This document shows positions 18,633 to 22,676 of a stretch of DNA of 64,000 nucleotides, in pieces; within the stretch, counting starts at the first letter, position 1, and every line of letters begins with the position of its first letter. The notes beneath the pieces were generated by a model. The model was given only the letters and a program-made list of their open reading frames with translations. It was not told where the DNA came from and did not search any database. Position numbers and translations under genes: made by a program. Source of the DNA: the human T2T-CHM13v2.0 reference genome, Homo sapiens; the NCBI RefSeq assembly GCF_009914755.1, contig NC_060925.1; one strand, given 5' to 3'.

Positions 18633-18894
18633 AACACCTATTCTTTGTGCTAGGCTGGGTAAATAATTATATTAAGGAACATGAAAGAAGCATAAGCCAT
18701 GTACTCTCTTAGTTAAAACATGATCATTTCCAACAATCCAGCAATGCTTGACTTCTTTACTTGCCCTTCTTAACATTTAATGCAAACGCTAAGCACAAAT
18801 AGCTCCAGGGAAGCTGTTGTTGATGTCGCTAAATTAATATGGAGTTGGTTTATATTTCACTCAATCAGGGATGTCTTTTAAATTCTCTTTACAG

Positions 18895-19161
18895 TTACTC
18901 CAAAAGACATAAAACTTACAGCTTTTCCTTCTGAGAGTGTCAAAGAAGGAGACACTGTCATCATCTCTTGTACATGTGGAAATGTTCCAGAAACATGGAT
19001 AATCCTGAAGAAAAAAGCGGAGACAGGAGACACAGTACTAAAATCTATAGATGGCGCCTATACCATCCGAAAGGCCCAGTTGAAGGATGCGGGAGTATAT
19101 GAATGTGAATCTAAAAACAAAGTTGGCTCACAATTAAGAAGTTTAACACTTGATGTTCAAG
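18895..19161 (+). CDS. VCAM1: VCAM1 exon 8: Ig domain 7
   Basis: Acceptor ctttacag|TT, donor G|GTGAGT, 267 nt; [19 protein letters not shown]...SLTLDVQ. Confidence 0.98.
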
Positions 19162-20102
19162 GTGAGTTTGTTTTGAGTTTTTGTTTTCTTGGTAATAGTT
19201 CAGAGGTTCCAAGGATTACTAAGAGTTTCCAATATTTGATGAATGAGTTGGCAAAATGGAGCTGTGGTTTATTTCTTAAGGATTCTTGGAAAAATCAAGC
19301 ACAGCTGCTTTATCCTATAAAGTTTAGCCAGGAAGTTGACATTAATCATTCGTGACTGAGGAATTCCTGCTTGCTTTTTTCAGTTTACAATTTATCATTT
19401 GTCTCTGAGGTCTTGCAGTTGCTAAATGTTTAACCATATTTTCAGACCTTTTCCCGGGAGGTTATAAGGAAACTAAAGAAGTAGGATTGGCACATTGAAA
19501 AAGAAGGGTTCTATCCAGACCCTCTTCCTTTCTACCAGAAGGAAACACTATTTTCTGAACATGGAGTAACTGCAATTTTCTGGATTGACTCTTTTCAGGA
19601 TAATAATTGGGAATAGTAAACTTGATCCTGAACAACATAAAAAAATCTCTCGACTATCGAAAAGCCTCATTAAAATTCCAACCCACTTGCCATCCTACTC
19701 TATTCTGGTGGACAGAGAAAGAGAGGAGCAGTATCCTCATTGGAGAAACTTCAGGGGCCCCTTAATCTCCTAAGCCCTCTTGTGAATGCACAGTAGGTAG
19801 GATCTGCTGATCTTATTGGTGTAAACAAAATACATCAGCCTTGGCTGATCAGTATCACACCCCTTGCACACCAATTAGCTGCTATTGTGTAATGGAGGCC
19901 ATACTTGGCGGTGGAGTGCAAACAGGACTGCAAACAAATGCCAAGTCTTAAGAGGTCTGGCACTTGGCTATTGGAGTGAGCAATCACTTGTCAATGCAGA
20001 GAAAATTTGAATCTACATCAGAAACAGGTAAAATTTTTGTTCGTCTACCCAAATTTCTCAAAATGGCAAGCCTTACCGTATGTATGTTTTCCATCTTCAC
20101 AG

Positions 20103-20377
20103 TACCTCCTCAAAACATGAGAATAGCTGTATAGCTATACATCCATCTAGAAATGTTAAAGAAGGGGAAAACATCACGATTATATATGAAACTTCTAGTC
20201 ATCCACCTGCAGTGATTATCCTGAAAAGAATTGATCTAGCCAATGAAGTTACTATGTGTTCAAAGAAGGGAACATTTACTTTGTATCATGTCACTCAAAA
20301 TGATTCAGGGGTATATGTAATCAGTGCTTCCAATGAGGTTGGGGATGATTCTGGACAGATTGCAATCTCAGTTATGA
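20103..20377 (+). pseudogene. Pseudo-exon encoding an eighth Ig-like domain in VCAM1 intron 8
   Basis: Acceptor ttttccatcttcacag|TA and donor A|GTAGGT, both phase 1. Length 275 nt = 267 + an 8-nt duplication (atagctgt/atagctat). The corrected frame aligns without gaps to domain 7. Confidence 0.9.
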
Positions 20378-22171
20378 GTAGGTTGAATTTACTCATCCCT
20401 ATTTTCTTTAATCCTTAATGCCTCTGGGCCACCTTTAATTAAGCCTAGCCCTGGGAAATTGGTCCCCTAACATTTCTGTAATTCTTTTGTTAATTAATTG
20501 TGACCTTTTAAAGACACATCAAACCTGCTTCTCTACTTTTTGACTCTGTCTCACACACATTGCTTTATTTTCTAATTGCTTTATCAAATTAGCCACTTAC
20601 ACAGTTGCTACTTTTTACTCATTATTTAAATGAACAATCAAAGAATATTAAGCGCTCAGCTAGAAACTCATGCCCCCAAACTGAATATAGTTTAAACTAG
20701 CTAAATTTTAATGAAGACCAAAAAATGGATATTTTTCTGGGTATTTTGAACTAGATTTCTTTTGCATTTGGCTGGATTTTTTATTTGTTTCATTTTGTCT
20801 TAGCTTGAACGTATTCCATTAATAGAAATCATCAGGATTTTTAAAAGATATTCAGTGTTTATATGACAAATAGAAAATTGTATTTGAAGGTTGCCCTGGC
20901 AACTACCTTGGCAGCAAATTTGTATTTTTCTGCCAATGCCTGTGGGGAAGACTGAAAGGCAAAAGATAATGTATATTACATTGAAAAGAAAGAAAGAAAA
21001 GAAATAGAAATAGTATTTCTGTTTCTCAGCATGTCATCAATATTGATGCCTATCCATAATCATGTTGATGGACATCCCATTCAAATATTACCCTTATACT
21101 TTGACTAGCTCAGCTCTAGCAAGGGAAAGTCAAAAAGTGAGACAATTATCATTATGCTTAGGGTGAACTGTTTTTCTTCAATAATTTGAAAAAGTGACTT
21201 CACATTATCTGATGCTCGTGATTCTTTTTACTTGGTTGACCTCCAGTGATTAGAAAGCTCTGGAAAGAATGTAGTAATCACCAAAGTCAGATCTCTAGTT
21301 TCTGCCAGGACTGAGACAATGTATATGCCACTTAGTGAAACTTAATACTTGTGTGGTCACATGATGCTGTGCAAAGTATAAACAGGAGTGAGTCTTCAGT
21401 AAATGACACACTATCTTCTTCAGCTGCTCTTATAAAGTTAAGATGTTAAGCAGTATAGCAGCTGTCAGATGATTTTTTAGCAGATTAGAAAGAATACTAA
21501 TTTTAAAGTTTTTGTATGCTGTTACCTACTGTACTCCATTTACAACTAAGTGGCAAAAGCAAAATGTAGAGAGAAAAAAATGTTATTAGTGTTTAAAAAA
21601 TATTGTTTTTGGTGCCAACTAGGCCAAGCAGTGAGTCAGGTGCTGGCTGTTCAGTGATGGACTAAAAAGAAAATAGATATACATGTCTTGATGTAATTTT
21701 TAGCTTAGGGGAGGAAACTAAACTTAATAAGTAATTACATGGATAAATGTTTAATTAAAAGCTGTAATAAGGGTTTTGAAGGGAAAACGAGTGGGTTTTG
21801 AAAATATATTGAGGTTCTTAATTTAGAATGAGGGAGATATAGATTAGAGAATGCCTCTAAGAAACATTTAAGCTGTAACATAACACTGTCCAAAGAACTC
21901 TAGTTTATCAAAAGATGATATAAATGCTGAAGAGGAAAAATGTATTAATATGCCCTATTTCTGACATAAAAAACATAGAAACTTCTGTATATCTCTGAGA
22001 AAGCCATTGGCAAGATTTTTTTTTTCTCTTACGATCTTATTTGTGGCATTTAGCTATAATGGTCACACTCTGAATATTATAAGGATTTTCTTAGAGAACT
22101 GGTTAGTCATTTCAATTCATGGTCATCAGAGTCCCAGTTCTTTAGTAGATATTTTTATTTCCCCAAGCAAG

Positions 22172-22515: not shown

Positions 22516-22676
22516 GAAGAGAAAACAACAAAGATTATTTTTCTCCTGAGCTTCTCGTGCTCTATTTTGCATCCTCCTTAATAATACCTGCCATTGGAAT
22601 GATAATTTACTTTGCAAGAAAAGCCAACATGAAGGGGTCATATAGTCTTGTAGAAGCACAGAAATCAAAAGTGTAG
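22516..22676 (+). CDS. VCAM1: VCAM1 exon 9 coding part: stalk, transmembrane helix, cytoplasmic tail
   Basis: Acceptor ttttccag|GA; [56 protein letters not shown] at 22674-22676. Confidence 0.98.

What the first reader, a model, noticed from the sequence alone, without database searches (positions are those of the whole stretch)
20103..20377. Hidden eighth Ig-domain exon in VCAM1 intron 8, killed by an 8-bp tandem duplication
Seen in sequence: a polypyrimidine/AG acceptor (ttttccatcttcacag|20103) and a donor (A|GTAGGT, 20378) bound a 275-nt block in the same phase 1-1 as every VCAM1 Ig exon. Spliced to exon 8 it reads VPPQNMRIAV-TAG (stop at 20132-34). The stop lies inside an imperfect 8-nt tandem duplication (atagctgt 20123-30 / atagctat 20131-38). 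Deleting one copy gives exactly 267 nt, the length of exons 4, 7 and 8. It also gives an open 89-aa domain: VPPQNMRIAIHPSRNVKEGENITIIYETSSHPPAVIILKRIDLANEVTMCSKKGTFTLYHVTQNDSGVYVISASNEVGDDSGQIAISVM. This aligns without gaps to domain 7 at 25/89 identities by my count (PS..VKEG, IILK, D.GVY, N.VG). The two canonical Cys positions read Tyr (TAT, one change from TGT) and Ile. No other stop or frameshift has accumulated. Inference: ancestral VCAM-1 had an eighth, membrane-proximal domain that was lost relatively recently in the human lineage. I recall an 8-domain VCAM-1 form reported in rabbit, which needs verification, so the domain may be known in other species.
Basis: partly seen in the sequence, partly recalled or inferred. 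Interest (0 to 1): 0.92.

Follow-up and report, generated by a model that had tools for sequence, protein, structure and literature searches.

The report
Dead eighth Ig-domain exon in VCAM1
Intron 8 of human VCAM1 holds the broken remnant of an exon for an eighth, membrane-proximal Ig domain that platypus, marsupials, birds, amphibians and a few placental mammals still use, so human VCAM-1 lacks what is the most conserved Ig domain among the seven other mammalian VCAM-1 proteins compared.

Summary
Window 20103-20377 is a 275-nt block with an intact acceptor and donor, lying between VCAM1 exon 8 (domain 7) and exon 9 (transmembrane). Read in phase from exon 8 it stops at TAG 20132-34, inside an 8-nt near-tandem duplication.

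The frame after the duplication is open for 82 codons. It is 83% identical to the eighth Ig domain of an 828-aa, eight-domain VCAM-1 (P0002) and 81% to a bat VCAM-1. tblastn of P0002 places its domain 8 at 20122-20388 (E 3.6e-39), in the right order.

The same domain is the last Ig domain before the membrane in platypus, marsupial, bird, caecilian and frog VCAM-1. It has the most invariant columns of the five domains counted (64 of 89).

Human carries 10 unique replacements at those 64 columns, against 2 and 3 in the two intact placentals. One replaces the invariant B-strand Cys.

This is a decayed, orthologous pseudo-exon. The timing, and whether the duplication was the first lesion, could not be tested. 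Whether the human remnant is already in print could not be settled.

The parts
18895..19161 (+). VCAM1 exon 8 (Ig domain 7). It ends in phase 1 (…CAAG|gtgagt) and is the upstream splice partner of the pseudo-exon.
   Evidence: Hub annotation; sequence; tblastn of P0002 residues 594-686 at 88% identity.
20078..20102 (+). Acceptor region of the pseudo-exon: a pyrimidine-rich tract ending in cag.
   Evidence: (gtatgtatgttttccatcttcacag|TACCTC), comparable with the acceptors of the eight real internal and last exons listed.
20103..20377 (+). Pseudo-exon: the decayed orthologue of the VCAM-1 domain-8 exon. It is 275 nt, that is 267 nt plus an 8-nt insertion.
   Evidence: 82 open codons. 83% and 81% identity to domain 8 of P0002 and P0003. 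tblastn E 3.6e-39. Pfam I-set 26 bits, above the 23.7-bit cut-off. AF2 Ig fold with pLDDT 86.8.
20123..20138 (+). 8-nt near-tandem duplication (atagctgt / atagctat). It shifts the frame by +8 relative to intact orthologues.
   Evidence: Both reading frames give Ile-Ala at alignment columns 8-9, so these columns are covered twice.
20132..20134 (+). In-frame TAG created at the junction of the two 8-mers. It lies 243 nt upstream of the pseudo-exon's donor.
20185..20187 (+). TAT (Tyr) at the B-strand Cys position, which is Cys in all 7 intact orthologues aligned.
   Evidence: C26Y.
20378..20383 (+). Donor gtaggt after exon-final A. The GT is intact, but the site is further from consensus than the G|gtgag donors of the three other 267-nt Ig exons.
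22516..22676 (+). Coding part of exon 9 (stalk, transmembrane, cytoplasmic tail), the downstream splice partner. The pseudo-exon's final A plus GA would give Arg, as in P0002 (…SVM-R-RENSK).
   Evidence: Hub annotation; (exon 9 starts GAAGAG); P0002 sequence; tblastn of residues 777-828 at 96%.

Best explanation
Window 20103-20377 is a unitary pseudo-exon. It is the human orthologue of the exon for the eighth, membrane-proximal Ig domain (D8) of VCAM-1. The exon sat between the domain-7 exon and the transmembrane exon, in the same 1-1 phase and at the same 267-nt length as the other single-domain exons. In the lineage leading to humans it stopped being part of the protein. It has since picked up an 8-nt tandem duplication, which shifts the frame and creates TAG 20132-34. 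It has also picked up replacements at otherwise invariant residues, including the B-strand Cys and two N-glycosylation sequons. Human mRNA joins exon 8 directly to exon 9, giving the familiar 7-domain, 739-aa protein.

Shown here: homology, position, phase, the 8-nt excess, the stop, and the excess of human-specific changes.

Inferred: the exon is not used in humans (based only on its absence from the RefSeq models given by the hub); decay has lasted tens of millions of years; any transcript that did include it would be a target of nonsense-mediated decay (NMD).
For: 1. Homology. P0001, the open frame 20131-20376, is 83% identical over 100% of its length to residues 694-775 of P0002. P0002 is an 828-aa VCAM-1, which equals the 739 aa of the hub's CDS plus 89. 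P0001 is 81% identical to a Hipposideros armiger VCAM-1 model, P0003.

2. Position. tblastn of P0002 against the window maps domains 1-7 onto exons 2-8, residues 691-779 onto 20122-20388 (80% identity, E 3.6e-39), and residues 777-828 onto exon 9. There is no other extra hit.

3. Splice phase. The junction residues in P0002 (…DVK-V-PPRN… and …ISVM-R-RENSK…) are what the human splice phases would give.

4. Ancestry. A D8-type domain is the last Ig domain before the transmembrane segment in platypus, four marsupials, a caecilian, a frog and a bird. Many more bird and amphibian VCAM-1 proteins match the D8 profile.

5. Ig domain. Pfam Ig_3 and I-set match 8 of 8 aligned D8 sequences. The AF2 model has pLDDT 86.8 with seven strands. 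The best PDB fold matches are Ig domains of neurotrimin, CEACAM7 and CD22 d6-d7, with TM 0.76-0.81.

6. Relaxed constraint. Human has 10 unique changes at the 64 columns invariant in 7 other mammals; P0002 has 2 and P0003 has 3. In the functional domains 1, 2, 3 and 7, human has 4 changes at 144 such columns. Fisher p = 0.0014; binomial for 10 vs 2, p = 0.039.

7. Glycosylation. Only 2 sequons remain in human, against 3-5 in four intact orthologues.
Against: - Nothing found here contradicts the homology.
- Non-use in humans rests only on the hub's RefSeq table; no RNA data were available.
- Both splice sites are still intact, so occasional inclusion is not excluded.
- The binomial contrast with the bat alone is not significant (10 vs 3, p = 0.092).
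- Only two placental protein clusters with D8 turned up in three database searches. These searches are word-seeded and lossy: one search missed platypus and the marsupials. The distribution among placentals is therefore unknown.
- P0002 comes from an unnamed source, so its lineage cannot be used for dating.
Confidence: 0.92

Rival explanations
1. The block is still used in humans as a regulated alternative 'poison' exon. Inclusion would place TAG 243 nt upstream of the last exon junction. That would trigger nonsense-mediated decay, or yield a secreted 7-domain VCAM-1 ending in a 10-residue tail.
For: The acceptor (pyrimidine tract plus cag) and the GT donor are intact. The stop lies well beyond the roughly 50-55 nt rule for NMD (established knowledge; coordinates).
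Against: None of the three RefSeq transcripts in the hub's table includes it. The donor (A|gtaggt) is weaker than those of the other three 267-nt Ig exons. The excess of replacements at invariant residues shows that the coding content is not maintained, although a poison exon would not need it. No RNA data could be examined here.
Confidence: 0.06
2. The block is a young intragenic duplicate of another VCAM1 single-domain exon (domain 3, 6 or 7) that decayed, not an ancestral eighth domain.
For: It has the same 1-1 phase and nominal 267-nt length as exons 4, 7 and 8, and 24-31% identity to them.
Against: It is only 20-24 of 88 identical to human domains 3, 6 and 7, but 73-83% identical to the terminal domain of other mammals. 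That domain is present as far out as caecilians, frogs and birds.
Confidence: 0.01
3. The lesion is specific to this assembly or haplotype, and other humans carry an intact, functional D8 exon.
For: Only one human assembly was seen. Short tandem duplications can be polymorphic (general knowledge).
Against: Besides the frameshift, there are 10 unique replacements at invariant columns, including the B-strand Cys and two sequons. The two 8-mers have already diverged by one base. Human VCAM-1 is annotated with seven Ig-domain exons (hub table).
Confidence: 0.01

Closest known systems
Domain 8 of eight-domain VCAM-1 orthologues (P0002, 828 aa, unnamed source; Hipposideros armiger isoform X1, P0003)
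   Same: The position between domain 7 and the transmembrane exon is the same, as are the splice phase and the nominal 89 codons. Identity is 83% and 81%.
   Different: The human copy has an 8-nt insertion and an in-frame TAG, Tyr for the B-strand Cys, two lost sequons, and 10 unique replacements at otherwise invariant columns.
Membrane-proximal Ig domain of non-placental VCAM-1 (platypus P0004, marsupials P0009/P0011/P0013/P0014, caecilian P0008, frog P0010, bird P0017)
   Same: The motif skeleton is shared: VPPRNTT…ITITC…NGTFTLY.VT..DTG.Y…VGN…IEISV. All of them lack an F-strand Cys and a C-strand Trp. The human reading is 77% identical to platypus and 73-74% to marsupials.
   Different: Those domains are intact and sit in proteins with other domain counts (525-891 aa). 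The human copy is non-coding.
Rabbit eight-Ig-domain VCAM-1 (recalled: Cybulsky et al. 1991, Am J Pathol and PNAS; not read)
   Same: If my recollection is right, this is the published eight-domain form whose extra domain lies next to the membrane.
   Different: It could not be verified, because the papers are not held. One 1994 paper (PMC2290915) holds 'VCAM-1', 'rabbit' and 'eight Ig' in the search listing only. Its body text could not be read.
Alternative splicing of VCAM1 exon 5 (domain 4; 6- versus 7-domain human forms) and the mouse 3-domain GPI-anchored form
   Same: Both change the number of Ig domains in VCAM-1 through whole-exon modules in phase 1-1. The mouse forms are described in the Introduction passage of PMC2193422. 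The human 6/7-domain forms are recalled.
   Different: Those are live splicing choices of intact exons. This one is a disabled exon.

Membership tests
Orthologue of the VCAM-1 domain-8 exon | Lies between the domain-7 exon and the transmembrane exon, on the same strand | tested here: met
   tblastn of P0002 gives D7 at 18882-19160, D8 at 20122-20388 and the TM exon at 22518-22673.
Orthologue of the VCAM-1 domain-8 exon | High, D8-specific sequence identity (higher than to any paralogous domain) | tested here: met
   83%, 81%, 77% and 73-74% identity to D8 of P0002, bat, platypus and marsupials. Only 20-24 of 88 identical to human D3, D6 and D7.
Orthologue of the VCAM-1 domain-8 exon | Phase 1-1 with splice-junction residues Val (G+TA) and Arg (A+GA) | tested here: met
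   compared with the P0002 junctions DVK-V-PP and SVM-R-RE.
Orthologue of the VCAM-1 domain-8 exon | Intact 267-nt open reading frame (a functional member) | tested here: not met
   The block is 275 nt with TAG at 20132-34 in the exon-8 phase. It is therefore filed as a pseudo-exon, not a functional exon.
Immunoglobulin superfamily domain (I-set / C2-like) | Significant match to the Pfam Ig profiles | tested here: met
   For the human reading, I-set scores 26.0 bits (cut-off 23.7). Ig_3 scores 28.5 bits, just under its cut-off of 30. All 8 of 8 aligned D8 sequences match Ig_3 and I-set.
Immunoglobulin superfamily domain (I-set / C2-like) | Beta-sandwich fold | tested here: met
   AF2 with the 8-row alignment gives pLDDT 86.8, pTM 0.72 and seven strands. 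Foldseek top hits are Ig domains with TM 0.76-0.81. This is a prediction, not a solved structure.
Immunoglobulin superfamily domain (I-set / C2-like) | Canonical B-strand to F-strand disulfide and C-strand Trp | tested here: not met
   There is no F-strand Cys and no C-strand Trp in any of the 8 rows of A1. The 7 intact rows keep the B-strand Cys; human has Tyr. D8 is thus a disulfide-less Ig domain even where it is functional.
NMD-inducing poison exon | Inclusion in a measurable fraction of transcripts | not testable with these tools
   No transcript data were available. The hub's RefSeq table lists no transcript with this exon.

The most novel reading that the evidence does not exclude
D8 is a functional module of VCAM-1 that has been overlooked. 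It has more invariant columns across monotremes, marsupials and placentals (64 of 89) than any of the four other domains counted. It is a disulfide-less, heavily glycosylated, membrane-proximal Ig domain. It is missing from human and, by published domain count, from mouse, the two species in which I recall most VCAM-1 work having been done. If the recalled rabbit eight-domain form is correct, primates and murid rodents lost it independently. That would point to selection on stalk length, shedding or a cis-partner rather than to drift.
Probability: 0.3. Interest if true: 0.6.

Novelty: new member of a known kind. Interest (0 to 1): 0.45.

Why it matters
Human VCAM-1 is annotated, and commonly described, as a seven-domain molecule. 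This remnant shows that the seven-domain form is a derived, shortened version of an eight-module ancestor.

- The lost module has the most invariant columns of the five domains counted across mammals.
- This affects how results carry over between animal models with and without D8. It could also bear on membrane-proximal events such as ectodomain shedding and on antibody or probe design, and it matters for gene-model annotation in other mammals.
- It gives a clean, datable case of loss of a whole protein domain by exon death in the human lineage.
- It is not a new kind of phenomenon. The domain itself is already present in public protein models.

Tried and rejected
**Literature**
None returned text describing a human domain-8 pseudo-exon or an eight-domain VCAM-1.
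- The only lead is PMC2290915, which holds 'eight Ig', 'rabbit' and 'VCAM-1' in the listing. Only its abstract and references can be read.
- The 1991 gene-structure and splicing papers were asked for under several ids. One search used a PMC id printed, and a PubMed id printed there. Searches used ids I recalled. None is held.
- A 2011 review, asked for by a recalled PMC id and DOI, is not held.
- PMC2193422 (passages only) confirms only the mouse 7-domain and 3-domain GPI forms.
- 'Not found in print' therefore holds only for the searched library. The 1991 papers may well describe this remnant.

**Dating the loss**
- No tool here reaches primate or other mammalian genome DNA, so neither the 8-nt insertion nor the Cys-to-Tyr change could be dated, and no dN/dS could be computed.

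**Distribution among placentals**
- The three protein searches found only two placental clusters with D8.
- These searches are word-seeded. One search missed platypus and the marsupials that one search found, and one search lists only 120 of 176 hits.
- I therefore do not read this as evidence that most placentals lack D8.

**Rejected readings**
- Chance ORF.
- Recent duplicate of domain 7.
- The F-strand Ile as a decay lesion.

**Not run**
- The exhaustive representative search, the protein-atlas search and the complex prediction. They carry no taxon names or would not bear on the question.

Full report
**1.

The acceptor ttttccatcttcacag|TACCTC (exon start 20103) and the donor TTATGA|gtaggt (intron start 20378) bound a 275-nt block. 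Exon 8 ends …CAAG|gtgagt, so one base is carried into the next exon. G+TA gives Val, followed by PPQNMRIAV and TAG at 20132-34.

The stop sits at the junction of two adjacent 8-mers, atagctgt (20123-30) and atagctat (20131-38). From 20131 the other frame is open for 82 codons to the end of the block (P0001). That frame has 0 stops over the whole block; the other two have 11 and 6.

BLASTP gives 31%, 24% and 28% identity to human domains 7, 6 and 3.

**2. What it is**

P0001 matches Pfam I-set above the curated cut-off (26.0 vs 23.7 bits). It matches Ig_3 just below its cut-off (28.5 vs 30).

A search of the large protein collection with P0001 returned two proteins:
- P0002, 828 aa, from an unnamed source, 83% identical over the whole query.
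- P0003, named vascular cell adhesion protein 1 isoform X1 of Hipposideros armiger, 81% identical.

The hub's human CDS sums to 739 codons, and 739 + 89 = 828. In P0002 the matching stretch is residues 687-775, between domain 7 and the stalk/transmembrane segment. Its junction residues (…DVK-V-PPRN… and …ISVM-R-RENSK…) are what the human exon-8, block and exon-9 phases would give.

tblastn of P0002 against the 64-kb window maps domains 1-7 onto exons 2-8 and residues 691-779 onto 20122-20388 (80% identity, E 3.6e-39). The C-terminus maps onto exon 9. There is no other match outside annotated exons.

The block is therefore the positional and sequence orthologue of a domain-8 exon.

**3. The domain is ancestral and unusually conserved**

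Searching with domain 8 of P0002 found the same domain as the last Ig domain before the membrane in several groups:
- platypus;
- wombat, tammar wallaby, Tasmanian devil and a dunnart;
- a caecilian, a frog and a bird.

A profile search listed many more bird and amphibian VCAM-1 proteins and a lungfish VCAM-1-like protein (120 of 176 hits listed).

Among seven intact mammals (P0002, bat, platypus, four marsupials), 64 of 89 D8 columns are invariant. The figures for domains 1, 2, 3 and 7 are 31 of 91, 28 of 110, 40 of 88 and 45 of 88.

Even the decayed human reading is closer to platypus (77%) than any working human domain is (50-69%).

None of the 8 aligned D8 sequences has an F-strand Cys or a C-strand Trp, while the 7 intact ones keep the B-strand Cys.

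An AlphaFold2 model of the human reading with this 8-row alignment is a seven-strand sandwich (pLDDT 86.8, pTM 0.72). Its best PDB fold matches are Ig domains of neurotrimin, CEACAM7 and CD22 d6-d7, with TM 0.76-0.81. The sequence profile hits CEA, titin, CEACAM1, DSCAM and MAG Ig domains.

**4. Signs of decay in human**

- Relative to the 89-codon orthologues, the human block has exactly 8 extra bases at the duplication. Alignment columns 8-9 (Ile-Ala) are read twice, once in each frame.
- Either 8-mer could be the insert. Removing one leaves Ile at column 10, as in most mammals; removing the other leaves Val, as in the bat.
- The two copies differ by one base, so a substitution followed the duplication, or the copy was imperfect from the start.
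- At columns where all seven other mammals agree, human has 10 unique replacements: R4Q, T6M, T7R, T25I, C26Y, K27E, F29S, N53K, T66S and E85A. P0002 has 2 and the bat 3.
- In domains 1, 2, 3 and 7, human has 0, 1, 0 and 3 changes at such columns.
- 10 of 64 against 4 of 144 gives Fisher p = 0.0014. 10 vs 2 gives binomial p = 0.039. 10 vs 3 gives p = 0.092, which is not significant.
- Two of the sequons present in intact orthologues (NTT and NGT) are gone.

*Timing (inference, not computed by a tool).* About 16% of invariant codons are changed. That corresponds to roughly 0.07 substitutions per site, with wide Poisson limits. At primate neutral rates this means tens of millions of years, so I expect the loss to be shared with other primates. 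One stop and one indel in 267 nt is about what that much neutral change would give. The absence of further lesions is therefore not evidence of a very recent loss.

**5. How it works now**

The RefSeq table supplied with the finding lists no transcript using the block. Exon 8 is joined to exon 9.

The acceptor and the GT donor survive, though the donor (A|gtaggt) is further from consensus than the G|gtgag donors of the other three 267-nt exons.

If the block were spliced in, the TAG would lie 243 nt upstream of the last exon junction, which by the usual rule triggers nonsense-mediated decay. Failing that, the transcript would encode a secreted seven-domain protein with a 10-residue tail.

I could not test inclusion. 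I give this reading about 6%.

**6. Comparison with what is known**

The kind of event, loss of a domain by death of a symmetric exon that leaves a recognisable pseudo-exon, is well known. The domain itself is already in public protein models.

I recall that an eight-domain rabbit VCAM-1 was reported in 1991 by Cybulsky and colleagues. Those papers are not held, so this remains a recollection.

Ten full-text searches found no description of the human remnant. The one listing that combines 'eight Ig', 'rabbit' and 'VCAM-1' (PMC2290915) could not be read beyond its abstract and references.

Mouse VCAM-1 is described as having seven Ig-like domains plus a three-domain GPI form (PMC2193422, Introduction passage).

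**7. Limits**

- No mammalian genome DNA or RNA data could be reached. The date of the loss, the order of the lesions, dN/dS and transcript inclusion are therefore untested.
- Only two placental clusters with D8 were found. These searches are seeded by shared words and demonstrably incomplete: one search missed the monotreme and marsupial proteins found. The distribution among placentals is open.
- P0002 is unnamed and is cited by id only.

**8. Verdict**

This is a real, well-supported pseudo-exon: the dead orthologue of the ancestral, highly conserved membrane-proximal Ig domain of VCAM-1.

The timing and the 'killing' role of the duplication are unproven, and one of the two 'lost cysteines' never existed.

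It is of moderate interest and is a new member of a known kind, unless the 1991 papers already describe it.

Noticed in passing
P0004 (platypus VCAM-1), about residues 222-400: Two consecutive domain-3-type Ig domains are almost letter-for-letter identical. A third, more diverged copy follows. The model has no second domain-1/domain-2 pair: human domains 4 and 5 align best to its domains 1 and 2. This looks like a lineage-specific tandem exon duplication or an assembly or model artefact.
   Followed up: no
P0003 (Hipposideros armiger isoform X1): The bat model is 739 aa, the same length as human, but for a different reason. It contains domain 8 and skips domain 6: human domain 6 finds only its domain 3, at 59% identity. 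Equal length therefore does not mean equal domain content in VCAM-1 gene models.
   Followed up: partly
P0010 (Hyla sarda, 891 aa) and the other anuran and lungfish proteins of 802-987 aa listed: P0010 carries a run of several domain-7-like modules, each starting VPPKNT/VPPRNT/VAPKNT, before the single D8-type domain. The other long proteins were seen only as list rows. The number of membrane-proximal modules appears to be evolutionarily plastic, while the last one is kept.
   Followed up: no
window 20103-20377: One frame (offset 1 from the exon start) has no stop over all 91 codons and stays open back through the acceptor. The other two frames have 11 and 6 stops. The frameshift alone, not scattered stops, is what disables the exon in the exon-8 phase.
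   Followed up: yes
Alignment A1 and the alignment, column 50: All mammalian D8 sequences, human included, carry an extra Cys (…TMCSK… or …SICSK…) that the caecilian, frog and bird lack. In the AF2 model of the human reading it falls in the fourth listed strand, E41-44. By standard Ig topology (recalled) that would be the D strand, not adjacent to the B strand, so a disulfide with the B-strand Cys looks unlikely. No distance was measured, and its role is unknown.
   Followed up: no
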